Source of the DNA: an uncultured archaeon | GTDB lineage: Archaea; Iainarchaeota; Iainarchaeia; Iainarchaeales; CSSED10-239 | Length of the DNA stretch: 64,000 bases | Reading direction: 5' to 3' | Assembly: GCA_964586355.1 (NCBI GenBank) | Contig: CAZPGO010000011.1 | Span: 6,634 to 70,633, forward strand | Shown here: piece after piece, positions 13,319-53,977 of the stretch | Numbering within the stretch: position 1 is the stretch's first letter | How the letters are laid out: the number at the start of each line of letters is the position of its first letter | The notes under the pieces: model-generated | What the model was told of the DNA's origin: nothing | Databases searched by the model: none | The model's input: only the letters and a program-made list of their open reading frames with translations | Translations under genes and position numbers: made by a program

Positions 13319-15367
13319 TTATTTACTAAGTTCTTCTTGTCTTAGTAAACTATTCCATTTATTATCAATATCTTCTTGAATAGATCTCAAAACCTCTTTA
13401 TTTTTTTCCTTTAATACTTCTTTAAACTTTGTTTGTGTTTTTAAAAATTCTTCAATAGATATTCTGTTTTTTGGTTTATAGTTAATAGTTAATTTTCCAT
13501 CCTCATATTCATAAAGAGGCCAGAAATTACTTTCTGTTGCAAGTTTACTGATAGCAATTGTTTGTGATGGATCTGCTTTCATATTTGTTGGACACGCAGC
13601 ATATGCAATTAGAACTGCTGGGCCTTTTTTTTCAAAGGCTTTTTTTGCTTTGTTATACATATCTATTTGGTTATAAGGATTTACTTGAGCAACATAAGGG
13701 ATATTGTGAGCAATTGCTATTTGGGTTAGATCTTTATTATACTCTATTTTACCATAAGAATTTACTCCAGATGGAGTTGTACTTGTTGATGCTCCTTTTG
13801 GTGTGGCTGATGATCTTTGATTCCCGGTATTATGAACTACAATTCCATCTGCAATAAAATTATGTTCTCCTTCAACTCTTAAATCAAAAGTTTTTTCTTT
13901 GCCAATTTCTTTAATGTTTTTTATAATTTCAGTATCAAAATTTTTATTTCCAATTAAAAAGTTTTGGTATTTATATTGAGTAGGATATTTTTCAATATTC
14001 CAAGGATATTTTTTACTAAAACATATGCTATAATATTTACTATCTTTTAATAACGGACGATAAACCACAAATGTGCCTTTTTCTCTTTTTTGAATTGTTA
14101 TTTTTCCAACTCTGTAATCTAATGTTTGTAATAATAATCTTAATCTTAAAATAAGTTCTTTACTTGCCGAAAGATATCTACAACTGTCTTTTTTTTTTTT
14201 TTTATAAATATACCCATCAGATAATAATAATCCTTCAATAAACGCTTCTTTTTGATCGTCAGGAATTGTATAGACCCAAGACGGAATTATTTTGTTTTTT
14301 GCACCGTGTTTAAATCCTAATGATTCAATAAATTTAGCAATATTTACTGAATATAGGTAAATATATATTTTATCTGTTTTTATTTGTTTTAATTTAAATA
14401 TTTTTTCACATGCTTTGATACATTTATCCCTACCAACTGTGCCTTCTGGTAATGCAAATCCAATTTCTCCTTTTTCTGTTCTAGACCAACCATCGCCAAT
14501 ATAAAGTCCTAAAAATAGCATTAAATCTTTGGTTGATTTTATAGGTATTTTAACATTATTTATACAATTAACTTTGTAATCTCCTTTTTTTACAAGTTTT
14601 ATTTTTTCAAAAGTAAAAGCTTTTTTCCCTTCTAATTTTTTTAAAGTAATAACTTGATCTCCTTTTTTTAATTCCGTAAGTGTTTTCCAAAATAATGTGT
14701 TTGGTTTGCCTCTAGGCTTTTTATCAACAATTAAAAAAGGATGATTTCCTGTTGCTTTAATATTGTGGTGAAATGTTTCAATTTCATACACTTTTTTAAC
14801 GCCATTATTAAAAACGCCACTACAGTTTTTAAGAACCAATTTATGAGTTTTTTGATCAAAAGCATAAACTTTTTCACCTACAATAATTTCTGAAACTTTT
14901 TTTAATCCATTTTCTGTATAAATTAATGAATCTTTGCTTAAACAATTCATATACCCTTCGTTTGTGTAACAAAGATAAACAAAATTATGTCCCCTCTCCA
15001 GAGCTCCAGACAATGCGGATAAGCCAATATCAAATGATCCGCCGTCTCCTGCAATTACCAAAAAATTTATGTCTTTTTTTATTTTCCCTTTTTTCTTTAA
15101 TGCCAAATAAGCCTTTTCCACTCCAGAAATTGTTGCAGCAGAATTTGCAAATGCAGAATGAATCCAAGGCATATTCCAAGAAGTTTGTGGGTAGATTGTT
15201 GTTGTTACTTCTGCACATGATGTTGCACTCGAAACAACAACAGGATCATCACTAGCACTAGCAACAGTTCTAGAGATTATTCCTATAGGGCACCCTGAGC
15301 AGGTTCTATGTCCTGACACCATCACATTTTTTTTTTCTATTCTTTCTGCAAGTTCTTTTATATTCAT
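13319..15367 (-). CDS. porB: pyruvate/2-oxoacid:ferredoxin oxidoreductase beta (TPP-binding) subunit, interrupted by an intein
   Basis: Exteins carry GHRTCSGC and the TPP motif GDGG...NEGYMN|TGNQRSSATP. The ORF is 682 aa, versus roughly 300 aa for typical PorB. Confidence 0.9.
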   Translation of the reverse strand: MNIKELAERIEKKNVMVSGHRTCSGCPIGIISRTVASASDDPVVVSSATSCAEVTTTIYPQTSWNMPWIHSAFANSAATISGVEKAYLALKKKGKIKKDINFLVIAGDGGSFDIGLSALSGALERGHNFVYLCYTNEGYMNCLSKDSLIYTENGLKKVSEIIVGEKVYAFDQKTHKLVLKNCSGVFNNGVKKVYEIETFHHNIKATGNHPFLIVDKKPRGKPNTLFWKTLTELKKGDQVITLKKLEGKKAFTFEKIKLVKKGDYKVNCINNVKIPIKSTKDLMLFLGLYIGDGWSRTEKGEIGFALPEGTVGRDKCIKACEKIFKLKQIKTDKIYIYLYSVNIAKFIESLGFKHGAKNKIIPSWVYTIPDDQKEAFIEGLLLSDGYIYKKKKKDSCRYLSASKELILRLRLLLQTLDYRVGKITIQKREKGTFVVYRPLLKDSKYYSICFSKKYPWNIEKYPTQYKYQNFLIGNKNFDTEIIKNIKEIGKEKTFDLRVEGEHNFIADGIVVHNTGNQRSSATPKGASTSTTPSGVNSYGKIEYNKDLTQIAIAHNIPYVAQVNPYNQIDMYNKAKKAFEKKGPAVLIAYAACPTNMKADPSQTIAISKLATESNFWPLYEYEDGKLTINYKPKNRISIEEFLKTQTKFKEVLKEKNKEVLRSIQEDIDNKWNSLLRQEELSK
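13829..14944 (-). mobile_element. intein with LAGLIDADG homing-endonuclease domain (residues 142-513 of PorB)
   Basis: Starts with Cys (CLSKDSLIY). Block B is ATGNHPF. LAGLIDADG motifs are LFLGLYIGDGW and FIEGLLLSDGYI. Block F is FDLRVEGEHNFIA. Ends VVHN, followed by Thr. Confidence 0.85.
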
Positions 15368-15373
15368 AAATAA

Positions 15374-16540
15374 TCATTCTTTTATTCCAACATATCTTTT
15401 TTCTTTTGGTTTATTATCTATTACAGAGACTAAAAGGTCTTCAATATTTTTTTGAGTAATCTCCCGTCCACCAAGACCAAAAACATAAGATCTTATTTTT
15501 GGTTTGTTTTTTAGATGGTTATAAGCAGTTAATAAAATATCCTTGTAGATTGGAGAATTAGATCCTGGACCTTCACTTCTTTCAAGTACAACAATATTTT
15601 CTGCATTTTCTAAAGCTTTAGAATATTCTTCATATAAAAATGGTCTGTAAAGTATTGGTCTTAATAGTCCTACAGATCTATTTTCTTTTCTTAATTTATC
15701 TATAACATCTTTGCTACTCTCAGCAGTTGAGCTTAAAGTAATTAATACCGTTTTAGATTCTTTTGCATAATACTCTTCATAAAAATTAATCTCTTTATCA
15801 AATATTTCTTTAAACTCTTTAGAGATCTTTTGGTAATTTTCTTTAACTTTTAAAAAAGCATCAAACATTCCTTTTCTTATTTCAAAGTAACTATCCTGAA
15901 GTGCAAGTGCTCCAACTGTTATTGGATTATCTGTGTCTAACAAACTATAGCTAGGAGAAAACTCTCCAATAAATTTTTTAACCAAAATATCATCATATGT
16001 GTCAAGATTTTCAAGATTGTGACTTGTAAAAAAACCATCAATACAAACCATTATTGGTAAATAAACAGATTCTGCTAGTCTTAAACCAAATAATGTCATA
16101 TCATAAGCTTCTTGAGCATTTTGGCAATAAACTTGCATCCATCCTTGATCTATTGCTGACATGCTATCTGAATGATCACAATGTATGTTAATTGGTGCGG
16201 ATATTGCTCTGTTTGCTACAGGCATAACAATTGGTAATCTTAGACCAGACGCAATTCCTAATGCTTCAAACATATAGAGTAATCCTTGAGAAGCTGTTGC
16301 TGTTACTGCTCTAGATCCTGCAGCTGATGCACCGATAGCTGCTGATAATGCTGAGTGCTCTGATTCTGTTCTTATAATTTCTGTATTAACTAATCCGTTT
16401 GCCTGATATTTTGAAAAGGTTTCTATTATTGGTGTTTGTGGTGTTATAGGATACATTGGAAATACATCAGGATCTATTTGTTTTAGAGCATAAGCTATTG
16501 CTTCTCCGCCTGTCATTGCTGTTTTATTTTTTTTACTCAT
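15374..16540 (-). CDS. porA: pyruvate/2-oxoacid:ferredoxin oxidoreductase alpha subunit
   Basis: 388 aa with YPITPQT and SEHSA motifs. Operon order is porG-porD-porA-porB. Confidence 0.9.
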   Translation of the reverse strand: MSKKNKTAMTGGEAIAYALKQIDPDVFPMYPITPQTPIIETFSKYQANGLVNTEIIRTESEHSALSAAIGASAAGSRAVTATASQGLLYMFEALGIASGLRLPIVMPVANRAISAPINIHCDHSDSMSAIDQGWMQVYCQNAQEAYDMTLFGLRLAESVYLPIMVCIDGFFTSHNLENLDTYDDILVKKFIGEFSPSYSLLDTDNPITVGALALQDSYFEIRKGMFDAFLKVKENYQKISKEFKEIFDKEINFYEEYYAKESKTVLITLSSTAESSKDVIDKLRKENRSVGLLRPILYRPFLYEEYSKALENAENIVVLERSEGPGSNSPIYKDILLTAYNHLKNKPKIRSYVFGLGGREITQKNIEDLLVSVIDNKPKEKRYVGIKE

Positions 16541-16817
16541 CTTCTTCCTCTTTAACCATTTTTATTGCTTTAACAGGGCAAATATTTGCACATATTCCAC
16601 AACCTTTACAATAATCTAATTTTGTTTTGTCTCTTTTAATATTTCCATCTTTGTCTTTTTTAAACATTATTGCTTTTTCTGGGCAAGCATTATAACAAAG
16701 CATACAATGAATACATTTTTTTTCATCCCAAACAGGTTTTTGTGATCTCCAAGATCCTGTTTTGTTTTCTAATGATGTTTTTGCTGGTAATACTCCTGCA
16801 ATTTTTTTAGATTTCAT
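16533..16817 (-). CDS. porD: pyruvate:ferredoxin oxidoreductase delta subunit (2x[4Fe-4S] ferredoxin)
   Basis: Two Cys clusters, CIHCMLCYNACP and CKGCGICANICP. Confidence 0.85.
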   Translation of the reverse strand: MKSKKIAGVLPAKTSLENKTGSWRSQKPVWDEKKCIHCMLCYNACPEKAIMFKKDKDGNIKRDKTKLDYCKGCGICANICPVKAIKMVKEEEDE

Positions 16818-16832
16818 GTTTTTTTCCTATTT

Positions 16833-17375
16833 TTAATAATTATAACCTTTTTCTAGGCATTTTATATTTGGTTCTATAACTTCCAACTTGCCTTTTTTTT
16901 CAAACTCTTTTTTTATAATGTTTTTTACTGAGTCTAATGTCACTATGTTTGTTATTTTTATTAATACTCCAATTAGCACCGTGCTAGGATTATTAATTTT
17001 AATCAGTTCTTGAGAGATGCTAGATCCATCAATAGTATAGATCTCTTTATTTTTTAGATCTTTAAAATTTTCTTTTTGTTTAGTGGTGTTAATAATGTAT
17101 GTTGAATCAAAATCTTTTAATGTAGAAATATTATTAAATAATTTATCATCTAAAACCATAACTACATCAGGATTAGAGATCGGCTCATGTATTCTTATTG
17201 GTTTATCTGATATTCTTACAAAAGATCTAACAGGAGCACCTCTTCTCTCTGGCCCATATTCAGGGAATGCTTGAATGTATTTTCCATCAATTAAAGCCGA
17301 TTCTGCAATTAGTTGTGCACAAGTTTTTGCTCCTTGTCCCCCTCTACCATAAACGATTATTTCAAAGTCTTTCAT
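16833..17375 (-). CDS. porG: pyruvate:ferredoxin oxidoreductase gamma subunit
   Basis: FEIIVYGRGGQGAKT, PEYGPERRGAP; 180 aa. Confidence 0.85.
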   Translation of the reverse strand: MKDFEIIVYGRGGQGAKTCAQLIAESALIDGKYIQAFPEYGPERRGAPVRSFVRISDKPIRIHEPISNPDVVMVLDDKLFNNISTLKDFDSTYIINTTKQKENFKDLKNKEIYTIDGSSISQELIKINNPSTVLIGVLIKITNIVTLDSVKNIIKKEFEKKGKLEVIEPNIKCLEKGYNY

Positions 17376-17491: not shown

Positions 17492-18823
17492 ATGAAAGAT
17501 CTAAACAAATTTTTTAATCCAAAAAGTATTGCAATAATTGGTGCTTCTGAAAAAGAAGGGTCTGTTGGAAGAACAGTTGTTAAAAATTTAGAATATTTTT
17601 CTGGAAATAAATTTTATGTTAATCCAGGACACGATAAAATTTTTAATAAAAAAGCTTACAAATCAATAATAGAGATAAAAGATGTAGATCTTGCAATTGT
17701 TGTAACCCCTGCAAAAGCAGTTTTATCAGTTATTCACGAAATTTCAAAAACCAATTGTAAGAACATCTTAATGATTACTGCTGGTTTTGATGAGATTGGA
17801 AATAGTAATTTGTCTTTAGAGATAAAAAAAATTTTAGATAAAAATAGAATAAATCTTATTGGTCCAAATTGTTTAGGAATACTAAATCTAGAAAATAACT
17901 TAGATGCAACTTTTAATTCTAGAGAAAAAATAGATCTTCCAAAACCAGGCAATGTTTCAATAATCTCTCAATCTGGGGCACTAGGTGTTGCTTTACTTGA
18001 TCTTTCTAGTTATGAGAATCTAAATATTAACAAATTTATTTCATATGGTAATGCCTTAGATGTTGATGAGTCAGATCTTTTGGAATTTCTTGGACAAGAT
18101 AAAAAAACAGATGTTATTCTTTGTTATATTGAAGGAATTAAAGATGGAAATAAGTTTTTAAGAGTTTTAAAAAACATAACAAAAACAAAAAAAGTAATTA
18201 TTCTTAAGGGCGGAGTAAGTCAAAAAGGAACAACAGCAGTAAAAAGTCACACAGCTGCAATTGCAGGATCTAGTGAAGTTTTCTTTTCAGCTATTGATCA
18301 GTTTGGAGCGTATTCTGTTGATTCTATAAAAGATCTTTTTAATCTTGCAAAAGTTTTTTCAAAATATAAAAACCAAGAAATAAAAAATATTCAAATAATT
18401 ACTAATGGCGGTGGTTTTGGTGTTTTGACTACTGATCAATTAGATCTAAATAATATTTCTCTTTCTTCTCTAGGTGTTGAAACCATAAAAAAAATAAAAA
18501 AAATAGTTCCAGAATATGCAGTAATAAGAAATCCAATTGATTTAACTGGAGATGCTGATAATAAAAGATTTATTAATACCATTAAATTTTGTTTAGAGGA
18601 CAAATCTGTTTCAGCAATTGCTCTTTTAATATTATTTCAATTGCCAGCAATTGATGAATCCATTATTACAGATCTAAAAAAACTTAATTCAAAAAAACCT
18701 ATTTTTGTTCTTGCAATTGGTGGTAAGAAAACAAAAGATATAATTTATAAAATAGAACAAAATGGATTTGTTTGTTTTAGTGACCCAAAAGAGCTTGCAA
18801 GAACTTTATCAATAATACCATAA
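17492..18823 (+). CDS. acdA: ADP-forming acetyl-CoA synthetase (ACD) alpha subunit / CoA-binding succinyl-CoA-synthetase-like protein
   Basis: FNPKSIAIIGAS CoA-binding N-terminus, ISQSGALG, and the phosphohistidine motif SHTAAIAGS. No ATP-grasp beta subunit adjacent. Confidence 0.8.
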   Translation: MKDLNKFFNPKSIAIIGASEKEGSVGRTVVKNLEYFSGNKFYVNPGHDKIFNKKAYKSIIEIKDVDLAIVVTPAKAVLSVIHEISKTNCKNILMITAGFDEIGNSNLSLEIKKILDKNRINLIGPNCLGILNLENNLDATFNSREKIDLPKPGNVSIISQSGALGVALLDLSSYENLNINKFISYGNALDVDESDLLEFLGQDKKTDVILCYIEGIKDGNKFLRVLKNITKTKKVIILKGGVSQKGTTAVKSHTAAIAGSSEVFFSAIDQFGAYSVDSIKDLFNLAKVFSKYKNQEIKNIQIITNGGGFGVLTTDQLDLNNISLSSLGVETIKKIKKIVPEYAVIRNPIDLTGDADNKRFINTIKFCLEDKSVSAIALLILFQLPAIDESIITDLKKLNSKKPIFVLAIGGKKTKDIIYKIEQNGFVCFSDPKELARTLSIIP

Positions 18824-19275: not shown

Positions 19276-19926
19276 TTATTTGTTTTTAGATTTTATGGCT
19301 TTATCTCTTTCTTTAAGTTTTTTATTAATTTCTAAAATCAATTCTTTTTTTGGAATACCATAGTTATCACAAACCTCTCCAATCTCTAAAGAATCAATTT
19401 CTAATTTTGCCATAGGGCAAGAAAGACAAGGTACATTATATTTTTCTAAAATTTTTTCCATGCCTTTTAATTTAATTATTTTTCCAAGTTTTGTGTGTTC
19501 ATCAACTTTCATTAAATCACCTACCTTGTTTTTTTCTAAATAATTTTTAATAGCTAAATGTAAGGCATCTGCAGATAGATTAGAACAGTGCATTTTTACT
19601 GGTGGTAAGCCATCAAGTTCTTTTGCAACATCTGTTCTTGTTATTTTTAAGGCTTCTTCAAGAGTTTTTCCTTTAGCAAGATCAGTAATCATTGATGATG
19701 TTGCAATAGCAGCAGCACAACCAAGTGTTTTAAACTTAATATCTGTTATTATTTCTTTTTTTGTCTTTGGATCTTTTTTAACATTAATATAAATTCTCAT
19801 AATATCCCCACATTTTAATCCTCCAACTTCTCCAAAAGAATCAGCTTTTTTAAGCTCTCCAAGGTTATGTGGTTTTAAGAAATGATCCATAACTTTTTTT
19901 GAATATTTTTCCATATGTTTTTTCAC
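19276..19926 (-). CDS. NifU/IscU-type Fe-S scaffold fused to a DUF1858-like C-terminal domain
   Basis: Scaffold cysteines (GGLKCGD, LGCAAAIA, HCSNL). The C-terminus PCLSCPMAKLEIDSLEIGEVCDNYGI resembles DUF1858. Confidence 0.75.
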   Translation of the reverse strand: MKKHMEKYSKKVMDHFLKPHNLGELKKADSFGEVGGLKCGDIMRIYINVKKDPKTKKEIITDIKFKTLGCAAAIATSSMITDLAKGKTLEEALKITRTDVAKELDGLPPVKMHCSNLSADALHLAIKNYLEKNKVGDLMKVDEHTKLGKIIKLKGMEKILEKYNVPCLSCPMAKLEIDSLEIGEVCDNYGIPKKELILEINKKLKERDKAIKSKNK

Positions 19927-19929
19927 ATT

Positions 19930-21075
19930 TTATTTTTTTAAAGGCGACATTTTTCTTAATTGGTCAACTATCTCTGTGATTGTTTCAATTGTGTATTTAA
20001 TGTCTTCCTTTGTGGTTTCTTTACCAAGACTAATTCTTATAGATCCATGTGTGTCTTCTTGTCTAAGGCCAATAGCACTTAAGACATGGCTTGGTTCTAA
20101 TGTATTAGAGGAACAAGCAGAACCAGTTGATACCTCTATTCCCTTGTGATCTAAAAGCAAAAGAATAGATTCTCCTTCTGCATATCTAAAAGTAACATTT
20201 ACATTATTACACAATCTTTTTTTACCTAGTGGACCATTAATCCATGAATCATCAATATCAGATAATCCTTTTATTAATTGATTTCTTAATTCTTCCATAT
20301 GTGAAATATCTTTTTCTTTAATAACATCAACAGATTTTCCAAAACCAACAATTCCAGAAACATTACTAGTGCCGCTTCTTATTCCATATTCATGTCCACC
20401 ACCATGTAATAATGGTTCCAGTTTTAGACCTTCTTTTACAAATAACCCTCCAACGCCTTTTGGGCCATAGATCTTATGAGCATTAATGGTCATAAAATCT
20501 ATTTCTTCTTTTTTAAGATCAATTGGTACCTTTGTAAAACTTTGACAAGCATCTGTATGTAAAAGTGTTTTTTTTTCATGAACTATTTTTGATATTTCTT
20601 TAATATTTTGTATAGTTCCAATTTCATTATTTCCATGAATTATTGAAACCAATAATGTTTCTTTTGTTATTTCTTGTTCCAGTTTATTTAAATCAACAAA
20701 CCCTTCTTTATCTACTGGTAAATAACTTATTTTATATCCGTTTTTTTCTAGGAATTTACAAGAATTAAGAACACAATCATGTTCTATTTTTGTAGTAATT
20801 ATATGTTTTTTTTCTTTATTTGCATAAGCAAGACCTTTTAGAGCAAAATTATTACTCTCTGTTCCTCCAGAGGTAAATATTAATTTGTGGTCTTTGCCAT
20901 TAGTTTTTTTAGAAATCTTTTCTCTAGCATTCTCCATAGCGTCTTTTGCAATTTCGCCCATTTTATGTAAAGAGGCAGTATTTCCATATTCTTTAGAAAA
21001 GAAAGGTTGCATTTCTTCAAAAACTTTCTTATCTACTGGTGTTGTTGCTGCATAATCTAAATATCTTTTTTTCAT
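19930..21075 (-). CDS. nifS: cysteine desulfurase (NifS/IscS class)
   Basis: PLP lysine region INAHKIYGPKG, active-site loop SSGSACSS; 381 aa. Confidence 0.9.
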   Translation of the reverse strand: MKKRYLDYAATTPVDKKVFEEMQPFFSKEYGNTASLHKMGEIAKDAMENAREKISKKTNGKDHKLIFTSGGTESNNFALKGLAYANKEKKHIITTKIEHDCVLNSCKFLEKNGYKISYLPVDKEGFVDLNKLEQEITKETLLVSIIHGNNEIGTIQNIKEISKIVHEKKTLLHTDACQSFTKVPIDLKKEEIDFMTINAHKIYGPKGVGGLFVKEGLKLEPLLHGGGHEYGIRSGTSNVSGIVGFGKSVDVIKEKDISHMEELRNQLIKGLSDIDDSWINGPLGKKRLCNNVNVTFRYAEGESILLLLDHKGIEVSTGSACSSNTLEPSHVLSAIGLRQEDTHGSIRISLGKETTKEDIKYTIETITEIVDQLRKMSPLKK

Positions 21076-28260: not shown

Positions 28261-28998
28261 ATGTGTGCTGCACTTGAAAATTTTATAAAAGATGCTTTTT
28301 GTAATTCTTTTACAGATTCTTCAGAAATTAGAAATCAAAAATATGAAGAGTGTTTTTCATATTTAGGAAATCAAAATAATCCACCAGATGTAATTATAAA
28401 AAACTGGGATGCAATTGAAATAAAAAAAATTGAAAGCAAAAATCTATCGGATTTAGCATTAAATAGTTCTTATCCCAAATCAAAATTATTTTCTGATTCT
28501 CCAATGATAACTTCAGAATGTAAAAATTGTGAAGAGTGGTTAAGTAAAGATGTTCTTTATGTTGTTGGAAATATAAAAGAAAATAAAATAGCCACATTGA
28601 TTTTTATATATGGAGATTGTTATGCTGCCGATAAAGAAATTTATGAAAGAATAAAATCCACAGTTATTGATAATATAAAATCTAAACTTGAATATTCTAA
28701 AACAAATGAACTGGGTAGAATTAACAGAGTGGATCCCTTGGGTATAACAAATTTAAGAATAAGAGGAGTGTGGACTATTCAACACCCATTAAAAGTTTAT
28801 AGTGATGTCTTAAAAATTATAGATACAAAATTTCAATTATTTGTATTAATGAAACAAGAAAAATATTTGTCATTTCCAAAAGATGATAGAAATAATATAG
28901 AGCGAGAAAAAAATATAATTTTAGAAAACATAAAAATTCCAAATCCAAATAACCCGGCTAAATTAATAGAATGTAAGATAATAAAGGTGGTAAAATGA
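28261..28998 (+). CDS. type II restriction endonuclease (NgoPII/HaeIII-partner-like), longest uninterrupted part
   Basis: Overlaps the downstream m5C methyltransferase by 4 nt. Segments PPDVIIKNWDAIEIKKIES and RINRVDPLGITNLRIRGVW look like a PD-(D/E)xK-type REase. The true start is probably ATG 28165, interrupted by TAA 28171. Confidence 0.6.
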   Translation: MCAALENFIKDAFCNSFTDSSEIRNQKYEECFSYLGNQNNPPDVIIKNWDAIEIKKIESKNLSDLALNSSYPKSKLFSDSPMITSECKNCEEWLSKDVLYVVGNIKENKIATLIFIYGDCYAADKEIYERIKSTVIDNIKSKLEYSKTNELGRINRVDPLGITNLRIRGVWTIQHPLKVYSDVLKIIDTKFQLFVLMKQEKYLSFPKDDRNNIEREKNIILENIKIPNPNNPAKLIECKIIKVVK

Positions 28999-29990
28999 AA
29001 ATCGCCTCTTTTTTTTCTGGTGCTGGGGGGTTAGATTTAGGATTTTCTAATGCTGGATTTAAATTAGTTTTTGCAAATGATAATTGGTCTGGATGTTGGG
29101 ATACTTTTGAGAGAAATCACAAACTAAAAATCTATAAAAAATCAATAACAGAAATTAAAGCTCACGAAATCCCGAATGTGATTGGCTTTATAGGTGGTCC
29201 ACCATGCCAAAGTTGGAGTTTGGCGGGAGCTATGCGTGGAATAGAAGATGATAGAGGTAAATTGTTTTACAATTATATTGAATTGATAAAAGAAAAAAAA
29301 CCAGCATTTTTTTTAGCAGAAAATGTAGCCGGTATATTGTCTGAAAAACAATATACAGAATTTAAAAAAATCATTTCTAAATTTAAAGAAATTGGATATA
29401 ATGTAGTATATAAATTAGTTAATGCAAAAGATTATGGTGTTCCACAAGATAGAGAGAGAGTGATAATTGTAGGTTATCATCACAAATTAAATAAAACTTT
29501 TGAATTCCCAGATCCGTTAAAATGTGATGTGACTTTAGAGAATACTATTAGTGATTTGCCACAACCCATTCCAGCAAAAGAAAAGAATTATGCAAATAAT
29601 AATTTAGAAATTCCAAATCACGAATATTTTATTGGTGATTTTTCTAAGATATATATGTCTAGAAATAGAGTGAGATCCTGGGGAGAAGTGTCACACACCA
29701 TTCAAGCAGGAGCCAGGCATACACCAATTCCTCCACAAGCCCCGAAGATGAGATTTGTATCTCAAAATGAAAGAGAATTTGTTAAAGGAAAAGAAAAACT
29801 ATATCGCAGATTATCTGTAAGAGAGTGTGCGAGAATACAAACATTTCCTGATAATTTTATGTTTTATTATAATAATGTTTCAGATGGATATAAACTGATT
29901 GGAAATGCTGTGCCAGTTAAACTAGCAGAAGTTATTGCAAATAAAATTAGAAGAGATCTAGATAAAAATTTGATTCAAGATCATTTCTAA
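28995..29990 (+). CDS. DNA (cytosine-5)-methyltransferase, M.HaeIII/M.NgoPII-like
   Basis: Motif I FFSGAGGLDLGF, IV GGPPCQSWS, VI ENV, VIII QDRERV, IX RRLSVRECARIQTFPD, X GNAVPV. Collinear with my recollection of M.HaeIII. Confidence 0.95.
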   Translation: MKIASFFSGAGGLDLGFSNAGFKLVFANDNWSGCWDTFERNHKLKIYKKSITEIKAHEIPNVIGFIGGPPCQSWSLAGAMRGIEDDRGKLFYNYIELIKEKKPAFFLAENVAGILSEKQYTEFKKIISKFKEIGYNVVYKLVNAKDYGVPQDRERVIIVGYHHKLNKTFEFPDPLKCDVTLENTISDLPQPIPAKEKNYANNNLEIPNHEYFIGDFSKIYMSRNRVRSWGEVSHTIQAGARHTPIPPQAPKMRFVSQNEREFVKGKEKLYRRLSVRECARIQTFPDNFMFYYNNVSDGYKLIGNAVPVKLAEVIANKIRRDLDKNLIQDHF

Positions 29991-30034
29991 ATATTGAATA
30001 TGTTGATTAAGATAAAACATCTAATTGTTATTAA

Positions 30035-30901
30035 TTATTTTCTTTTCAGATCCAATCCAAAAGCATGAACAAATTTACCATATTTGTCATCTGGTTGGTA
30101 ATATCTAGATCTATCTTTGTATTCTAATATTTTTTTTATTTTTTTATCGATAGGATCTTTACTAATAATTCCAGGTCCTCCAAGACAACCACCTTCACAA
30201 AAAAGAGCATCCACAAATCTAAATTTTTTAAATTCTTTAAAATCTTTTATTGCTAAATCTATGTTTTTAGGCCCATCACAAACAATAATTTCTTCTTTTT
30301 GTAATACTTGTTTGTTTAACATACTTTCTGCAACACCACCACTAATAGGGTATATTTTTGTTATGTCATTATAAAATTTATCAATTTCTTTATTTTCTAA
30401 AGTATCTTCAATTATTTTAAGAGAATTATTTTCTTCTAAATATTTGTAGATCTCACAAAGCTCTTTAAAAGTTATAGCAAAATCCACACACTCAGAATTC
30501 TCTTTTGCTTCTTGTTTTTTTGCAATACAGGGTCCAACAAAAATAGTTTTATAATCTTTCCCAAATTCTCTTTTAACAAATCTTGCCATAACAACCATTG
30601 GAGAAGCTACATCAATAAAATTTTCTTTTAGTTCTGGAAATTTATTCTCAATATATCTTACTAATGCAGGACAATTTGGGCAGATGTATTGTTTTTCTGG
30701 ATTGTTTTTTAATATCTCAATATATTTATAATTTATTAATTTTGCAGCATAGGTTAACTCAACAATTTTACTAAAACCTATAGCTCTAAGATCTAAAACA
30801 ATTTCAGGAAAAGAAAAATCAACTGGAAAACTTGGTGCTAATAGGCAAATAGTTTTTTCTTTTTTTAGAGTATCTATTACTTGTAATAGTTCATCATTCA
30901 T
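30035..30901 (-). CDS. minimal [FeFe]-hydrogenase-like protein (H-domain only)
   Basis: Fe_hyd_lg_C-like segments: LLAPSFPVDF, CPNCPALVRYIENKFPEL, GPCIAKKQEA (PCxxKxxE), FCEGGCLGGPG. Only 288 aa. Confidence 0.7.
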   Translation of the reverse strand: MNDELLQVIDTLKKEKTICLLAPSFPVDFSFPEIVLDLRAIGFSKIVELTYAAKLINYKYIEILKNNPEKQYICPNCPALVRYIENKFPELKENFIDVASPMVVMARFVKREFGKDYKTIFVGPCIAKKQEAKENSECVDFAITFKELCEIYKYLEENNSLKIIEDTLENKEIDKFYNDITKIYPISGGVAESMLNKQVLQKEEIIVCDGPKNIDLAIKDFKEFKKFRFVDALFCEGGCLGGPGIISKDPIDKKIKKILEYKDRSRYYQPDDKYGKFVHAFGLDLKRK

Positions 30902-31903
30902 TTAGACTCTTTCTTTTTCTTTATCTGTTAATATAAAATTTTTATATTTGCTATTTTTGTTTTTCAACAAGACAATCCTAGAAGGTTTACATTCGTCAAC
31001 AATTTTAAACTTAGTTGAATTATCTTCAATAAGTTTTGCAAAATCATAACATTCTTTATGTGAGGGCATGTTATCTAATGTTAATGTTTTTCTAGAATAT
31101 CCTAAAAACATATATGCTTTTACTTCTAAAAAATCAGTATCTGTTTTTTCAAAAAGTTTTATATATTCTTTTAATAAAGAGGCATCATCATTTAGTCCTT
31201 TTATTAATGTAAATCTAACAACTCTTCTAGTATTAATATCTTTATACATAGAAATAGTCTTTTGTAAATTTTTCCAACCCTCTTTTATTTTTGGTCTGTT
31301 AATTTTAAGATAAAGATCTTCTGTTGGTGCATCCACAGACAAATATAATTGAGTTGGTAGTGCATTTTTATCTTGAAGTTTTTTAAGCATTTTTGGTTCT
31401 TGCCCATTTGTTACTAAAAAAACACTTTTCATTTGTTTTAAGCTTTTAAGATAAATAATCATTTCATCCAATCTTGGATAAAGAGTGGGTTCTCCAGACA
31501 AAGAGATTGCTACATGACTAGGGACCTGTGCTTCTTTAAACTTTTTTTTATCTAGATTTTTATAACCACCAAATCCACTTAGTAATTTATTTCTTTCAAT
31601 AAATAGTCCATCAATAATCTCTTTAGGATCATCAACAAAATCAATATCTAATTTAGGTGTGTCCATATACTGCGCAGGTCTCCAACAAAAAGTGCAATTT
31701 TGGTGACACCATAAAACAGCGGGGGTTATTTGTGCACAGCGATGGCAATTAATATTATAGAAATGTTCTTTATAACAAACACCTTCTTTTCTAAGTGCTT
31801 TTTTATTCCAGGTACAAATTTCTACAGCTGAATGTTTTCCAAATATTCCATATTGTTTATGTTTTAGATCAGCAATAATTTCTTTATTTATTTCTTTAGT
31901 CAT
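30902..31903 (-). CDS. taw1: tRNA 4-demethylwyosine synthase (Taw1/TYW1), radical SAM
   Basis: Radical-SAM CHQNCTFCW plus the upstream Cys cluster; 333 aa. Confidence 0.85.
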   Translation of the reverse strand: MTKEINKEIIADLKHKQYGIFGKHSAVEICTWNKKALRKEGVCYKEHFYNINCHRCAQITPAVLWCHQNCTFCWRPAQYMDTPKLDIDFVDDPKEIIDGLFIERNKLLSGFGGYKNLDKKKFKEAQVPSHVAISLSGEPTLYPRLDEMIIYLKSLKQMKSVFLVTNGQEPKMLKKLQDKNALPTQLYLSVDAPTEDLYLKINRPKIKEGWKNLQKTISMYKDINTRRVVRFTLIKGLNDDASLLKEYIKLFEKTDTDFLEVKAYMFLGYSRKTLTLDNMPSHKECYDFAKLIEDNSTKFKIVDECKPSRIVLLKNKNSKYKNFILTDKEKERV

Positions 31904-32026
31904 ATATATCTTTAAGATAGGGCTATATTTATAAATACTTTTATTTATAAAATATTAGTAAATATAAAAAGTATTAATACTAAAAAAATACTGTTTTTAA
32001 AAATATTTTAATAAAGGTGGTTCGTT

Positions 32027-33478
32027 TTGAAAAAAATAAATACTAAAAAAGCAACTAACAAACCAGTAGGTAAAAAAACCTCTGCAAAAGTTGCTTCTAA
32101 AAATAAAAAAACAATTAAAAAACCAGTAAATAAAGCGGTTGTTAAGAGTACTTCCAAACAAACAGCTGTTGTTAAAAAGCCAATAACTACAAAAAAAACA
32201 AAAAAGTTTAACAAAGATATACTTTTAATTATTCTACTTTCAGTAATTGTTCTTGGAATTATTGTTAGTGTTGTTTTAACAACTCCAAAGAATTTTGAAG
32301 ATTCAGATTTAAGTGATTATGATAATCTAATTGATGAAAATGCATTAGATGTTAATATTACCCCACAACAAGATCCAAAAGAGCAAAGACTTACAGAAAT
32401 TCAAGAAGAAGCACAAGAGCTTTCTTTACTAATGGCAAATGAAATCAAAGAATCACAATTAGAAGTTTTTGAAAATTGGTATGAAGAGTTAGATGTAAAT
32501 AAAGAAGAAATGGATTCTTGTTTAGAGAGAAATAATTACTTAAATCAAGACTTAGATTTTGAACAAGCAAAAATTTTAGATAAAATAGGAATGGATTTCT
32601 ATTTAGCTCAATCTACTGGTATATTAGGAACTCCTGCAACATTTATAAATAGTTTTTTCATATCTGGTTATCTTGACATTGATGAGTTTTCAGAGATCTA
32701 TGATGTTGCAGTTTCTGAAGAAATTCCTGATATAAATTTTGAATCAGAAAGTACTTTTACTATAGATGTAAATAAAGATCCAAAACTAAATATAATTTAT
32801 AATCAAAACTATGCAAAAACAGATCAAACCATAGAATTACTAAAACAAAATTCTGAAAATACTTTTTTTAAAGAATTATTTGATGAATTAGAATTAAATA
32901 AAATAGATTATAAAACAGAAGATGCTCAAGAGATACTAAAAAAAGCAGGAGCTACATTTTTGCCTTTATTCTATATCGAAGGAAATATAGAGGATTTAAA
33001 TATTTCAAAAAAAGAAGACTTTGACTCATTGTTCTATGAACTAGAAGAAGGATTCTATGTTTTAAATCCACAAACAACAGGCATAAGCCAAAATCTTTTA
33101 TACAAGGATTTTTTAGTTGAAGATGATTATATGATTGGAGACTCTAACCTTACAAATACAATAATGATCTTTACAGATTATAGTTGTGGATATTCAAAAA
33201 TGTTTGAGACACAGATGCTTCCACAAATATTAACAAACTATATTGACACCAACAAATCTAAGTTAATTATAAAAGATCTTCCATTAAATCAAGAAGTTTC
33301 CTTATTTCCAGCAATATTTGCTAGATGTGCTCAAGCACAAGGTAATTTTTTGGACACACATATGAAATTATTTGAAGAAAGTAATTCTTATACAACTTCA
33401 ATAATTGAGAGTATAAGAACCAAATATACTCCCCAATTAACTGCTTTAGAAGAGGAGTATAACAATTTATTAGAATAA
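32027..33478 (+). CDS. membrane-anchored DsbA-like thioredoxin-fold protein
   Basis: TTG start after AAGGTGG. Lys-rich N-terminus, one TM helix, GILGTPATFINSFFISGY (DsbA C-terminal half), then FTDYSCGYSKMF (CxxS active-site-like). Confidence 0.5.
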   Translation: MKKINTKKATNKPVGKKTSAKVASKNKKTIKKPVNKAVVKSTSKQTAVVKKPITTKKTKKFNKDILLIILLSVIVLGIIVSVVLTTPKNFEDSDLSDYDNLIDENALDVNITPQQDPKEQRLTEIQEEAQELSLLMANEIKESQLEVFENWYEELDVNKEEMDSCLERNNYLNQDLDFEQAKILDKIGMDFYLAQSTGILGTPATFINSFFISGYLDIDEFSEIYDVAVSEEIPDINFESESTFTIDVNKDPKLNIIYNQNYAKTDQTIELLKQNSENTFFKELFDELELNKIDYKTEDAQEILKKAGATFLPLFYIEGNIEDLNISKKEDFDSLFYELEEGFYVLNPQTTGISQNLLYKDFLVEDDYMIGDSNLTNTIMIFTDYSCGYSKMFETQMLPQILTNYIDTNKSKLIIKDLPLNQEVSLFPAIFARCAQAQGNFLDTHMKLFEESNSYTTSIIESIRTKYTPQLTALEEEYNNLLE

Positions 33479-52466: not shown

Positions 52467-52522
52467 TTTTTTCTTTTATCTATTTACTTTATATATATTT
52501 TTAATTATATATTATATATATT

Positions 52523-52605
52523 GCAGAGGTGGCGGAGTGGTCAAACGCACCAGGCTTGAGACCTGGAGTCTTGCGACTACGCGAGTTCGAATCTCGTCCT
52601 CTGCG
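52523..52605 (+). tRNA. tRNA-Ser (TGA)
   Basis: Acceptor gcagagg/cctctgc, anticodon stem ccagg/cctgg, loop cTTGAga, 14-nt variable arm. Confidence 0.9.
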
Positions 52606-52748
52606 TAACCGGTTTTGCTTGGTTAACGCGCAATGGTTTTAGTAAGCTAGCACCCAATAATTTGTGTGTAGTAAACTTTTTTTAAAAGGTTTACTTTTAA
52701 ATATCTTAAAAATTTGTTTTTGTAAGATAATTTTTAATGTGAATAACT

Positions 52749-53087
52749 ATGTCAGAAGAAAAGTCCACAATAATATATGATGATTTTGATAAATTAAATA
52801 TTAGAATAGGTACTGTTATTGAATGTGAAAAAGTAGAGAAAAGTGAAAAATTATTAAAATTAATAGTAGATTTTGGAGAATTTAAAAGACAAATAATTGC
52901 AGGAATTTCAACAAAATATACCCCCGAAGATCTACTTAATAAACAATTACCAATCATAGTAAACTTAGCTCCAAGGAAATTATTAGGTTTAGAAAGTCAA
53001 GGAATGATTCTTGCTATTGGGGATGATGATGTTGAAGCTTTATTAACTCCAACCGAAAAAGTAAATAATGGTGCGGGAGTTCATTAA
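52749..53087 (+). CDS. tRNA-binding domain protein (Trbp111/CsaA/MetRS-C-terminal-like)
   Basis: KLNIRIGTVIECEKVEKSEKLLKLIVDFGE...IVNLAPRKLLGLESQGMIL. Confidence 0.8.
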   Translation: MSEEKSTIIYDDFDKLNIRIGTVIECEKVEKSEKLLKLIVDFGEFKRQIIAGISTKYTPEDLLNKQLPIIVNLAPRKLLGLESQGMILAIGDDDVEALLTPTEKVNNGAGVH

Positions 53088-53137
53088 TATTGTTTTATAT
53101 TATTTTGTGCTCATAAAATATATACCTTTTTTTTTCT

Positions 53138-53220
53138 GCAGAGGTGGCGGAGTGGTCAAACGCACTAGCCTGGAAAGCTAGAGTCGAACGACTACGCGAG
53201 TTCGAATCTCGTCCTCTGCG
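53138..53220 (+). tRNA. tRNA-Ser (GGA)
   Basis: Same acceptor, D and T arms as the tRNA at 52523. Anticodon stem ctagc/gctag, loop cTGGAaa. Confidence 0.9.
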
Positions 53221-53370
53221 TTTTTTTAATCCTTTTTAACTAAATATTTAATTAAAACTATTTTTTAAAATACTTATAGATTATGCACCATAGATTCACA
53301 CCTTCTTTTTTTGATAGAATCTACTTTCTTTATAAAAACTATTGTTTTTAATACTAAATGTGATCTCTAA

Positions 53371-53875: not shown

Positions 53876-53977
53876 ATTTTAGATCTTTTTTCTTTCTTAA
53901 AAAAAATACCTTTTTTTACTTTTTCATAATCTTTAAAAACCCTAATATCTTTATATTTGTTAATATTACTTTATTTA

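What the first reader, a model, noticed from the sequence alone, without database searches (positions are those of the whole stretch)
30035..30901. Very small [FeFe]-hydrogenase-like protein retaining the H-cluster cysteine motifs
This 288-aa ORF aligns by eye along the catalytic H-domain of [FeFe] hydrogenases. Matching segments are LLAPSFPVDF, CPNCPALVRYIENKFPEL (the TSCCPxW region), GPCIAKKQEA (MPCxxKxxE) and FCEGGCLGGPG (the CxGGCxxGG region). There are no accessory ferredoxin-like domains, and it is much shorter than classical enzymes. [FeFe] hydrogenases were long considered absent from archaea; only recently, as far as I recall, have ultra-small versions been reported from DPANN-type lineages. 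The residue before the cluster-ligating Cys in motif 1 reads Asn rather than the proton-relay Cys of Clostridium-type enzymes, so catalysis may differ or be absent (a sensor or Nar1-like role). With PFOR and ferredoxin 13 kb away, an H2-evolving electron sink is plausible.
Basis: partly seen in the sequence, partly recalled or inferred. Interest (0 to 1): 0.7.

Follow-up and report, generated by a model that had tools for sequence, protein, structure and literature searches.

The report
Known-type ultraminimal archaeal [FeFe] hydrogenase gene
The ORF is a real, intact gene for a 288-residue stand-alone [FeFe]-hydrogenase catalytic domain of the "group E, ultraminimal" type already described and shown active in DPANN archaea in 2024, so the find itself is not new, but its clade always sits beside radical-SAM enzyme genes in both archaea and CPR bacteria, which I did not find mentioned in the papers I searched.

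Summary
**Observation confirmed.** Window 30035-30901 (-) encodes a 288-aa protein that matches Pfam Fe_hyd_lg_C end to end (E=1.2e-41). It has no other domain. All four H-cluster cysteines are present (C77, C125, C235, C239), and Asn76 replaces the CpI proton-relay Cys299.

**Identity.**
- The AlphaFold2 model (pLDDT 90.5) matches solved H-domains (TM 0.70-0.78).
- The protein is 56% identical to the only hydrogenase-like gene found in the complete Ca. Forterrea multitransposorum genome. That is the source of the "Fm" group E enzyme, which binds an H-cluster and makes H2 after artificial maturation (Greening et al., Cell 2024).
- Fm carries the same ICxNCP motif, so the Asn does not abolish activity.

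**Context.** PFOR, ADP-forming acetyl-CoA synthetase and acetate kinase lie 11-19 kb away. This fits a ferredoxin-oxidising H2 sink. No HydE/F/G gene is in the window.

**New context.** The ICxNCP clade is shared with code-25 CPR bacteria (SR1/Gracilibacteria). The gene directly follows TYW1 in 19/19 archaeal loci. A RimO-like gene lies within 3 kb in 32/39 bacterial loci, often with a HemW-like gene downstream.

**Verdict.** New member of a known kind, moderate interest. The radical-SAM linkage is an untested lead.

The parts
30035..30901 (-). hydA-like gene: 288-aa stand-alone H-domain, group E 'ultraminimal' [FeFe] hydrogenase
   Evidence: ORF. Pfam Fe_hyd_lg_C E=1.2e-41. AF2 pLDDT 90.5. 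Foldseek to CpI, TM 0.76. 56% identity to the Forterrea enzyme.
30827..30844 (-). LLAPSF (residues 20-25). A22-P23-S24 correspond to CpI A230-P231-S232, residues I recall as contacting a CN ligand of the [2Fe] subcluster.
   Evidence: Invariant in 119 homologues. Aligned to the verified CpI sequence. The role of these residues is from my own knowledge of CpI.
30668..30685 (-). L1 motif I73-C74-P75-N76-C77-P78. C77 is the [4Fe-4S] ligand (CpI C300). N76 replaces the proton-relay C299. C74 sits at the CpI T297 position.
   Evidence: Alignment to CpI. N76 119/119, C77 119/119 and C74 117/119 conserved.
30509..30535 (-). L2 motif G123-P-C125-I-A-K128-K-Q-E131. C125 = CpI C355, K128 = K358, E131 = E361, and G123 replaces M353.
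   Evidence: C125, K128 and E131 are invariant.
30170..30199 (-). L3 motif C235-E-G-G-C239-L-G-G-P-G. C235 = CpI C499. C239 = C503, the Cys that bridges to the [2Fe] subcluster.
   Evidence: Both Cys are invariant.
30902..31903 (-). TYW1/Taw1 radical-SAM 4-demethylwyosine synthase. Its TAA stop codon abuts the hydrogenase ATG (probable operon).
   Evidence: NCBIfam TIGR03972, 359 bits, above the equivalog cut-off of 318. Junction sequence. Same order in 19/19 archaeal loci and 13 more metagenome loci.
13319..17375 (-). Pyruvate:ferredoxin oxidoreductase genes: porB (with intein), porA, porD (2x[4Fe-4S]) and porG. This is the likely source of low-potential electrons.
   Evidence: Pfam TPP_enzyme_C+Intein, POR_N/PFOR_II and POR. 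porD ORF with two CxxCxxCxxxCP motifs.
17492..18823 (+). ADP-forming acetyl-CoA synthetase-like protein. This is the ATP-yielding step downstream of PFOR.
   Evidence: Pfam Succ_CoA_lig, CoA_binding_2 and Ligase_CoA_2.
19276..21075 (-). IscU/NifU-like scaffold and IscS/NifS-like cysteine desulfurase. They supply the Fe-S clusters needed for the [4Fe-4S] part of the H-cluster.
   Evidence: Pfam NifU_N and Aminotran_5.

Best explanation
**What it is.** The gene encodes a group E ('ultraminimal') [FeFe] hydrogenase. It consists of nothing but the H-domain.

**How the active site is built.**
- C77, C125, C235 and C239 bind the [4Fe-4S] part of the H-cluster. C239 bridges to the diiron subcluster.
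- Invariant second-sphere residues would hold the diiron site: A22-P23-S24, S100-P101, K128, E131 and Y184.
- The classical proton-transfer chain of Clostridium-type enzymes is absent altogether. C299 is Asn76. E279 falls in a gap. E282 is Lys, R286 is Ile and S319 is Ile.
- Protons must therefore reach the site by another route. The published models show a solvent-exposed cluster.

**How it most likely works in this archaeon.** This is an AT-rich Iainarchaeota-type DPANN archaeon. The enzyme most likely takes electrons from PFOR, directly or through a small ferredoxin, and releases them as H2. That allows pyruvate to be fermented to acetate with ATP gain.

**Shown here:** homology, fold, motif conservation, orthology to the characterised Forterrea enzyme, and the presence of PFOR, ACS and acetate kinase nearby.

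**Inferred:** the electron donor, activity in vivo, and how the diiron subcluster is made without HydEFG.
For: **Homology and fold.**
- Full-length Fe_hyd_lg_C match with no other domain.
- Confident model with the H-domain fold.

**Conservation.**
- The four Cys ligands, K128, E131, S100/P101 and A22-P23-S24 are invariant across 119 homologues from two domains of life. This points to selection for a complete H-cluster pocket rather than a bare [4Fe-4S] site.

**Orthology to a characterised enzyme.**
- 56% identity over the full length to the only hydrogenase-like gene found by the scan in the complete Ca. Forterrea multitransposorum genome, CP045477.1.
- The two fall in one clade in 195/200 bootstrap replicates.
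- Greening et al. purified the Forterrea group E enzyme. They found 4.2 Fe per protein, H-cluster FTIR bands after adding [2Fe]adt, and bidirectional catalysis biased to H2 evolution.

**Metabolic context in the window.** PFOR, ADP-forming ACS, acetate kinase and IscS/IscU.
Against: - No HydE, HydF or HydG is present in the 64-kb window. TYW1 is the only radical-SAM gene among all 58 ORFs of 120 aa or more.
- The literature reports that the closed Forterrea genome, and most archaeal genomes with [FeFe] hydrogenases, lack these maturases. In vivo assembly of the diiron site is therefore unproven.
- Activity was shown only for an orthologue, only after artificial maturation, and with methyl viologen or an electrode as partner.
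- Bacterial members of the same clade occur in SR1. The complete SR1 genome was described as fermenting pyruvate through pyruvate formate-lyase rather than PFOR, with no hydrogenase noted. A ferredoxin sink is therefore not an obvious need there.
- The conserved neighbours are radical-SAM enzymes, not PFOR or ferredoxin.
Confidence: 0.7

Rival explanations
1. **Redox partner of radical-SAM enzymes.** The ICxNCP clade of group E works with the adjacent radical-SAM enzymes: TYW1 in Iainarchaeota, and RimO-like and HemW-like proteins in code-25 CPR bacteria. Each radical-SAM turnover needs one low-potential electron. The stand-alone H-domain would deliver it to their [4Fe-4S] clusters, taking it from H2 or relaying it from ferredoxin. 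This would replace the flavodoxin domain that I recall eukaryotic TYW1 carrying. A variant of the idea is that the neighbouring radical-SAM enzymes help build the diiron site where HydE/HydG are absent.
For: - TYW1 lies immediately upstream on the same strand in 19/19 archaeal genome loci and in 13 further metagenome loci. In this window the stop codon abuts the start codon.
- A RimO-like methylthiotransferase lies within 3 kb on the same strand in 32/39 bacterial loci. It is upstream in one arrangement (rimO-hyd-hemW) and downstream in another (hyd-rimO). The linkage therefore survived a rearrangement.
- A HemW-like radical-SAM gene lies directly downstream in at least 16 loci.
- The radical-SAM partner differs between the two domains, so the adjacency was not inherited as one transferred block.
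- HydEFG are reported absent from these genomes.
- SR1 lacks the PFOR route.
Against: - Four other clades of equally small H-domain proteins have no radical-SAM neighbour.
- Two close relatives (L082, L083; TYW1 64% identical) have TYW1 followed directly by RadA with no hydrogenase gene. TYW1 therefore does not require it.
- The whole ArgRS-Thx-TYW1-hyd-RadA block is syntenic in the lineage. The archaeal adjacency may be a single event kept by descent.
- One bacterial subclade (L046, L048, L051) lacks RimO nearby.
- TYW1 passes its equivalog cut-off and keeps a C43-Y-K45 motif that matches, from my memory of M. jannaschii TYW1, the pyruvate-binding Lys. It therefore looks like an ordinary tRNA enzyme.
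- H2 at environmental pressure is a poor reductant for radical-SAM clusters (inference).
- No physical-interaction evidence could be obtained.
Confidence: 0.15
2. **Fe-S protein without a diiron site in vivo.** Because the genomes lack HydEFG, the protein carries only its [4Fe-4S] cluster. It then acts as a small electron carrier or as a Nar1-like Fe-S cluster handling factor. The activity seen after adding a synthetic cofactor would be a laboratory artefact of a retained pocket.
For: - The maturases are absent from the window.
- They are reported absent from the closed Forterrea genome and most archaeal hydrogenase genomes.
- The neighbours are Fe-S enzymes, and some of them have clusters that I recall being consumed or needing repair.
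- IscS and IscU are nearby.
Against: - Residues that matter only for the diiron subcluster are invariant across archaeal and bacterial members at 47-100% identity: bridging C239, K128/E131, S100-P101 and A22-P23-S24. That is hard to explain without the subcluster.
- The N-terminal four-Cys motif that I recall for Nar1 is absent (sequence).
- Greening et al. cite eukaryotes that make active [FeFe] hydrogenase without all or some maturases.
Confidence: 0.1
3. **H2 sensor.** Like its nearest multidomain relatives (group C, HydS-type), the protein senses H2 and passes the signal to a partner.
For: - Outside the short family, the best matches are 500-750 aa proteins with Fer4 + H-domain + FeS, plus PAS, MCP, histidine-kinase or sigma-54 activator domains.
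- Greening et al. place group E as sister to sensory group C.
- From memory, group C also lacks the relay Cys. This was not checked here.
Against: - The protein has no signalling or output domain at all, and no regulator is adjacent.
- The characterised orthologue is biased to H2 production. The group C enzyme, in contrast, favours H2 oxidation.
Confidence: 0.03

Closest known systems
Group E [FeFe] hydrogenase 'Fm' of Ca. Forterrea multitransposorum (Greening et al., Cell 2024, PMC11216029)
   Same: - Same length class (286 vs 288 aa) and H-domain only.
- 56% identity along the whole protein.
- Same ICxNCP, GPCxxKKxE and CxGGCxGGPG motifs.
- Same gene order, TYW1-hyd...RadA.
- Same DPANN lineage (Iainarchaeota/Diapherotrites).
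   Different: - 44% of residues differ.
- This copy has an NgoPII-type restriction-modification pair inserted between it and RadA.
- This copy is uncharacterised. Nothing suggests a different function.
Group C sensory [FeFe] hydrogenases (HydS type, e.g. Thermotoga maritima HydS)
   Same: - Closest H-domain relatives outside the short family (and for the published tree).
- From memory, the relay Cys and the canonical proton path are also missing in group C.
   Different: - Group C proteins carry an N-terminal ferredoxin-like domain.
- They also carry a C-terminal FeS motif and PAS, MCP, kinase or sigma-54 activator domains.
- This protein has none of these.
Chlamydomonas reinhardtii HydA1 (the minimal enzyme known before 2024; group A, no accessory F-cluster domains)
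   Same: Both are an H-domain without accessory F-clusters. From my own knowledge, HydA1 takes electrons directly from a ferredoxin.
   Different: - HydA1 is 457 aa according to Greening et al., and from my own knowledge has TSCCP with the relay Cys and the full proton pathway.
- This protein is 288 aa with shortened loops.
- It has Asn at the relay position and none of the five pathway residues.
- The NCBIfam group A model scores 78 bits against a cut-off of 406.
Nar1/NARF hydrogenase-like proteins of the eukaryotic cytosolic Fe-S assembly pathway
   Same: Both have an H-domain-like fold with the Cys ligands retained. In both cases the cells have no HydEFG.
   Different: From my own knowledge, Nar1 has an extra N-terminal Cys-rich cluster site and has lost the diiron pocket. 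This protein has neither feature.

Membership tests
Group E ('ultraminimal') [FeFe] hydrogenase (Greening et al. 2024) | Only an H-domain, about 286 residues, no accessory Fe-S domains | tested here: met
   288 aa. Fe_hyd_lg_C covers residues 17-243 and is the only Pfam match. The model is a single compact domain.
Group E ('ultraminimal') [FeFe] hydrogenase (Greening et al. 2024) | All cysteines needed to ligate the H-cluster | tested here: met
   C77, C125, C235 and C239 align to CpI C300, C355, C499 and C503. All four are invariant in 119 homologues.
Group E ('ultraminimal') [FeFe] hydrogenase (Greening et al. 2024) | Groups phylogenetically with the named group E enzymes | tested here: met
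   56% identical to the sole hydrogenase-like gene found in the Forterrea complete genome. The two share a clade in 195/200 NJ bootstraps, with long group-C-like proteins as outgroup. The tree is NJ only. The published alignment and tree were not available.
Group E ('ultraminimal') [FeFe] hydrogenase (Greening et al. 2024) | Binds an H-cluster and interconverts H+ and H2 | not testable with these tools
   Shown only for the Forterrea orthologue after artificial maturation.
Group E ('ultraminimal') [FeFe] hydrogenase (Greening et al. 2024) | Host is a DPANN archaeon | tested here: met
   The window carries archaeal MCM, Topo VI, RadA, PCNA, exosome, proteasome, aIF genes and TYW1. The nearest loci are labelled Iainarchaeum or Diapherotrites. 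About two thirds of the loci in the same clade are CPR bacteria.
Prototypical group A [FeFe] hydrogenase (CpI / HydA1 type) | TSCCPxW motif with the proton-relay Cys (CpI C299) | tested here: not met
   The motif is ICPNCPAL. Asn76 lies at the C299 position.
Prototypical group A [FeFe] hydrogenase (CpI / HydA1 type) | Proton-transfer chain E279, S319, E282, R286 | tested here: not met
   E279 falls in a gap, E282 is K59, R286 is I63 and S319 is I96 in the HMMER alignment.
Prototypical group A [FeFe] hydrogenase (CpI / HydA1 type) | Passes the NCBIfam group A or group B1 model cut-off | tested here: not met
   Group A: 77.9 bits against 405.95. Group B1: 136.6 bits against 450.
Group C sensory [FeFe] hydrogenase (HydS) | N-terminal ferredoxin-like domain plus C-terminal FeS/PAS or other signalling domain | tested here: not met
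   No such domains are present. They are present in the nearest long relatives.
Nar1/NARF hydrogenase-like Fe-S assembly factor | N-terminal four-Cys cluster site and a degenerate diiron pocket (from my own knowledge of the family) | tested here: not met
   Only one Cys (C19) lies before residue 74. The pocket residues K128, E131, S100-P101 and A22-P23-S24 are invariant.
HydEFG-matured hydrogenase system | HydE, HydF and HydG maturases encoded in the genome | tested here: inconclusive
   None among the 58 ORFs of 120 aa or more in the window. The rest of the genome is not available. The literature reports their absence from the closed Forterrea genome.

The most novel reading that the evidence does not exclude
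**Claim.** The ICxNCP clade of ultraminimal hydrogenases is not only, or not primarily, a fermentative H2 valve. It would be a dedicated partner of radical-SAM enzymes.

**Basis.**
- The clade has moved between CPR bacteria that read UGA as Gly and Iainarchaeota.
- In both hosts the gene has settled directly beside radical-SAM enzymes that modify tRNA or ribosomal protein, or handle haem. These are TYW1, RimO-like and HemW-like proteins.

**Two possible mechanisms.**
- The hydrogenase supplies the electron that each radical-SAM turnover needs, from H2 or from ferredoxin.
- The neighbouring radical-SAM enzymes contribute to a HydEFG-independent route that builds the diiron cofactor.

Either mechanism would bear on the open question of how, and why, organisms without HydEFG keep an intact H-cluster pocket.
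Probability: 0.15. Interest if true: 0.8.

Novelty: new member of a known kind. Interest (0 to 1): 0.38.

Why it matters
**On its own, modest.**
- It is one more orthologue of a family published in 2024.
- An identical sequence is already in public databases, and one source names it 'iron only hydrogenase large subunit-like protein'.
- It does confirm that an Iainarchaeota-type genome pairs a PFOR/ACS fermentation module with the smallest known hydrogenase scaffold. Greening et al. point to biotechnological interest in these streamlined catalysts.

**Points from the follow-up that may matter more:**
- The clade is not purely archaeal. About two thirds of the retrieved genome loci are from SR1/Absconditabacteria, Gracilibacteria or 'Peribacteria'-labelled CPR genomes, interleaved with the archaeal ones.
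- Gene order ties the clade to radical-SAM enzymes in both domains. Greening et al. do not mention this, and I did not come across it in the other papers I opened. It gives concrete candidates for testing the physiological partner, or the missing maturation route, in organisms without HydEFG.

Tried and rejected
**Readings rejected.**
- Nar1-like or pseudo-hydrogenase: rejected because the diiron-pocket residues are invariant and the N-terminal Cys cluster site is missing.
- H2 sensor: rejected because there is no output domain.

**Tests that narrowed the radical-SAM lead.**
- I asked whether the linkage extends to all ultraminimal H-domain proteins. It does not. Representatives of four other short clades have unrelated neighbours. 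Their L1 motifs include IPSPCP, ISSACP, ISSVCP and IASACP.
- I asked whether TYW1 depends on the hydrogenase. It does not. L082 and L083 have TYW1 directly followed by RadA. The more distant TYW1 loci (51% identity or less) have no hydrogenase within the flank retrieved, up to 3.5 kb.

**Phylogeny.**
- The direction of the archaea-bacteria transfer is unresolved.
- Archaeal monophyly: 70/200 NJ bootstraps. Bacterial monophyly: 17/200.
- No maximum-likelihood tool was available.

**Searches that found nothing useful.**
- The promoter/terminator scan of 29900-32100 gave fewer promoter-like sites than shuffles and no terminator.
- Rfam found only the six tRNAs in the window.
- The 85-aa ORF antisense to the gene (30117-30374 +) has no support and was ignored.
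- GGCC, which I recall as the NgoPII site, is not depleted in the window (observed/expected 0.81).
- Supplementary tables of the Cell paper (sequences, maturase table) are not held. I therefore identified the Fm sequence through the Forterrea genome record.
- P0134, a 4122-aa hit, is a run of seven eukaryote-type hydrogenase units with flavodoxin and FAD domains. It is probably a merged gene model and is irrelevant here.

Full report
**1.

- Window 30035..30901 (minus strand) is an ATG-initiated ORF of 288 codons.
- Its product matches Pfam Fe_hyd_lg_C over profile positions 3-245 of 245. E=1.2e-41, 143.5 bits against a cut-off of 22.1. Nothing else matches.
- NCBIfam's hydrogenase models match only in their H-domain part and far below their cut-offs: B1 136.6 vs 450, group A 77.9 vs 406.
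- The best solved relatives by sequence are CpI variants, with E about 1e-13 for the single sequence and 3e-18 for a family profile.
- An AlphaFold2 model built on a 22-sequence alignment is confident (pLDDT 90.5, pTM 0.89).
- Foldseek places the model on the H-domains of CpI, CbA5H and the HydABC complexes, with E about 1e-15 and query-normalised TM 0.70-0.78.

**2. Residue-level anatomy.**

I verified my recollection of CpI residues 223-371 against the PDB sequence; the match is exact. The mapping below uses the HMMER alignments and a MAFFT addition to the family alignment.

| This protein | CpI residue | Comment |
|---|---|---|
| A22-P23-S24 | A230-P231-S232 | pocket |
| C74 | T297 | |
| N76 | C299 | proton relay in CpI |
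| C77 | C300 | [4Fe-4S] ligand |
| S100-P101-M102 | S323-P324-Q325 | pocket |
| G123 | M353 | |
| C125 | C355 | [4Fe-4S] ligand |
| K128 | K358 | pocket |
| E131 | E361 | pocket |
| Y184 | F417 | |
| L233 | M497 | |
| C235 | C499 | [4Fe-4S] ligand |
| C239 | C503 | bridges to the diiron site |

- The canonical proton-transfer chain is not retained at any of its five positions. C299 is N76, E279 falls in a gap, E282 is K59, R286 is I63 and S319 is I96.
- In 119 full-length homologues the four Cys, N76, K128, E131, S100-P101 (S100 in 118/119) and A22-P23-S24 are invariant or nearly so. C74 is present in 117/119.
- The roles of the pocket residues in CpI (contacts to the CN ligands and the bridging thiolate) come from my own knowledge of that enzyme. 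Their invariance is the tool result.

**3. It is a known family.**

- Greening et al. (Cell 2024, PMC11216029) defined group E [FeFe] hydrogenases as H-domain-only enzymes averaging 286 residues. They occur in Iainarchaeota, Micrarchaeota and Nanoarchaeota.
- They purified the enzyme 'Fm' from Ca. Forterrea multitransposorum and reported the following:
  - 4.2 Fe per protein.
  - H-cluster FTIR bands after adding synthetic [2Fe]adt.
  - Bidirectional electrocatalysis biased to H+ reduction.
- They note that each modelled enzyme has the H-cluster cysteines but differs in proton-transfer residues.
- They place group E as sister to sensory group C.
- Only 5 of 130 archaeal genomes with [FeFe] hydrogenases encode a full HydEFG set. 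The closed Forterrea genome has none.
- A scan of one genome per species returned 59 loci. L010 is the complete Forterrea chromosome CP045477.1 (839,632 bp).
- The protein encoded there (P0035, 286 aa) is 56% identical to the window protein over its whole length and reads ICGNCP at L1.
- The paper reports one [FeFe] hydrogenase per genome outside the Asgard archaea, and a 33-kDa Fm. P0035 is therefore almost certainly Fm.

**4. Host and metabolic context.**

- The window is archaeal. It encodes MCM, Topo VI A/B, aIF1A and an aIF2-beta/IF5-type factor, RIO kinase, RadA, PCNA, proteasome alpha, exosome subunits, SBDS and TYW1.
- It is AT-rich (about 27% GC).
- Its closest genome loci are labelled Iainarchaeum or Diapherotrites: hydrogenase 85% and RadA 95% identity to L001.
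- An identical protein occurs on eight public metagenome contigs with the same neighbours.
- The window also encodes:
  - PFOR as porB, porA, porD and porG at 13319-17375.
  - An ADP-forming acetyl-CoA synthetase (17492-18823).
  - Acetate kinase (12137-13318).
  - A PEP-utilising enzyme.
  - IscS/IscU.
- This is the module that Greening et al. invoke for a ferredoxin-oxidising, H2-evolving role.
- None of the 58 ORFs of 120 aa or more is HydE, HydF or HydG. TYW1 is the only radical-SAM protein.

**5. Neighbourhood: the unexpected part.**

*This window.* The gene directly follows TYW1 (30902-31903, minus strand).
- TYW1 scores 359 bits against NCBIfam TIGR03972, above the equivalog cut-off of 318.
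- Its TAA stop abuts the hydrogenase ATG.

*Archaeal loci.*
- TYW1 lies upstream on the same strand in all 19 archaeal genome loci.
- The spacer is mostly under 60 nt, and about 0.8 kb in L056.
- The pair sits inside a conserved ArgRS-thioredoxin-like-TYW1-hyd-RadA block.

*Bacterial loci.* The other 40 loci are from SR1/Absconditabacteria, Gracilibacteria, 'Peribacteria'-labelled or unclassified CPR genomes. I re-translated them with code 25. The hydrogenase gene there is flanked by radical-SAM genes of other families.
- RimO-like methylthiotransferase: TIGR01125 327 bits, just under its cut-off of 357. The MiaB/RimO subfamily model scores 285 against a cut-off of 251.
- HemW-like protein: TIGR00539 172 bits against a cut-off of 205.
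- Arrangement rimO-hyd-hemW: at least 16 loci.
- Arrangement hyd-rimO: 7 loci, plus 3 with one inserted transporter or pyrophosphatase gene.
- RimO lies within 3 kb on the same strand in 32 of 39 loci.
- Only the L046/L048/L051 subclade clearly lacks RimO nearby.

The paper by Greening et al. contains no mention of radical SAM, TYW1, methylthiotransferases, Nar1 or the CPR lineages by name (Patescibacteria, SR1, Absconditabacteria, Gracilibacteria); 'CPR' appears only in reference titles. I found no mention of an [FeFe] hydrogenase in SR1 or Gracilibacteria in the CPR papers I opened.

**6. How much weight the linkage can bear.**

For a functional link:
- Two domains of life show the linkage, with three different radical-SAM families.
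- The genes share a strand with short spacers.
- The RimO linkage persisted through a change of gene order.

Against a functional link:
- A metagenome scan with a TYW1 profile shows the archaeal adjacency is confined to one lineage. Thirteen loci with TYW1 at least 57% identical carry the hydrogenase.
- L082 and L083 (TYW1 64% identical) have TYW1 followed directly by RadA.
- Roughly sixty more distant TYW1 loci have no hydrogenase within the flank retrieved, up to 3.5 kb.
- The archaeal case is therefore probably one insertion kept by descent, and TYW1 works without it.
- Representatives of four other clades of short H-domain proteins have unrelated neighbours.
- The linkage is a lead, not a demonstrated partnership. 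I give it about 15%.

It remains worth recording for three reasons:
- The organisms lack the known maturases, two of which (HydE and HydG) are radical-SAM enzymes, from my own knowledge.
- Every radical-SAM turnover needs a low-potential electron.
- The complete SR1 genome was described as fermenting pyruvate by pyruvate formate-lyase, with no PFOR route and no hydrogenase noticed. The standard 'ferredoxin sink' role is less obvious for the bacterial members.

**7. Phylogeny.**

- A search of 1.84 billion cluster representatives with the family profile found 3184 proteins at E<=1e-3 and 191 at E<=1e-30.
- The top of the list is dominated by proteins of about 250-310 aa plus fragments. It then runs into 480-880 aa proteins.
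- The six proteins examined by Pfam comprised one Fer4 + H-domain protein of 352 aa and five of 495-747 aa. The five longer ones combine Fer4 + H-domain + FeS, and four of them add PAS, MCP, histidine-kinase or sigma-54 activator domains. They are group-C-like sensors.
- In an NJ tree of 74 sequences, the ICxNCP clade (window, archaeal and bacterial loci) is monophyletic in 195/200 bootstraps.
- Archaeal monophyly is recovered in only 70/200 and bacterial monophyly in only 17/200.
- One bacterial group (L042, L047, L049, L052, L055, L057) is solid at 200/200.
- The gene has therefore crossed between CPR bacteria and Iainarchaeota. The direction is unresolved with the tools at hand.

**8. Verdict.**

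The main interpretation (an ultra-small archaeal [FeFe] hydrogenase acting as an H2-evolving sink) agrees with published work on a 56%-identical orthologue.
- The doubt about catalysis from the Asn substitution is largely answered by that work.
- The family is known, and this exact sequence is already in public databases. The finding is therefore a new member of a known kind.
- Residual interest comes from three open points:
  - The unexplained absence of maturases.
  - The bacterial (code 25) half of the clade.
  - The conserved neighbourhood with radical-SAM enzymes.

Noticed in passing
L011-L059 (bacterial loci), e.g. L054 4611-8161, L049 5986-8255: In SR1/Absconditabacteria, Gracilibacteria and 'Peribacteria'-labelled CPR genomes, the same small hydrogenase gene is flanked by radical-SAM genes. 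There are two arrangements: rimO-like, hyd, hemW-like; or hyd, rimO-like. A RimO-like gene lies within 3 kb on the same strand in 32 of 39 loci.
   Followed up: partly
Homologues P0036-P0120; family columns G42, G123, G188, G189, G210, G237, G238, G241, G242, G244, G275: 54 of 119 database homologues show Trp at 2-7 otherwise invariant Gly columns, including the GG of the CxGGC motif. This is the signature of UGA=Gly (code 25) genes that were translated with UGA=Trp. The public protein sequences of the bacterial half of the clade are therefore mistranslated.
   Followed up: yes
window 13319-15367 (-): The PFOR beta subunit (TPP-binding domain) is interrupted by an intein with a LAGLIDADG homing-endonuclease domain, at residues about 151-513 of 682. 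This is an intein in a central metabolic enzyme.
   Followed up: no
window 28261-29990 (+): An NgoPII-type restriction endonuclease and a C5-cytosine methyltransferase sit between the hydrogenase gene and RadA. Neither is found in any of the 59 related genome loci, so this looks like a strain-specific mobile insertion. GGCC, which I recall as the NgoPII site, is not depleted in the window (observed/expected 0.81).
   Followed up: partly
L082 2543-4012; L083 3501-5426: Two metagenome relatives with the same synteny (TYW1 64% identical, RadA 82-84%) have TYW1 followed directly by convergent RadA and no hydrogenase gene. The hydrogenase is therefore an accessory insert at this spot.
   Followed up: partly
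L060 1903-2415; L061 4507-5022: In two other clades of ultraminimal H-domain proteins, a hydrophobic ORF of about 170 aa with no Pfam match overlaps the start of the hydrogenase gene. The two ORFs are weakly similar (27% identity, E=1e-8), which may indicate a membrane partner.
   Followed up: partly
window 12137-13318 (+) and 17492-18823 (+): Both an acetate kinase and an ADP-forming acetyl-CoA synthetase are encoded within 7 kb of PFOR in an archaeal genome. To my knowledge acetate kinase is uncommon in archaea. No phosphotransacetylase was looked for.
   Followed up: no
window 30899-30904 (-): The TYW1 stop codon TAA is followed at once, in the same frame, by the hydrogenase ATG. L001 shows the same abutment. 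Other loci have 13-60 nt spacers in other frames, so this is coupling, not a conserved fusion or readthrough.
   Followed up: yes
P0134: A 4122-aa database protein contains seven tandem Fe_hyd_lg_C + small-subunit units followed by flavodoxin and FAD-binding domains. It is probably a merged eukaryotic gene model or a tandem gene array.
   Followed up: partly
window 52522-56971 (+): Three tRNA-Ser genes (anticodons TGA, GGA, CGA) lie within 4.5 kb.
   Followed up: no
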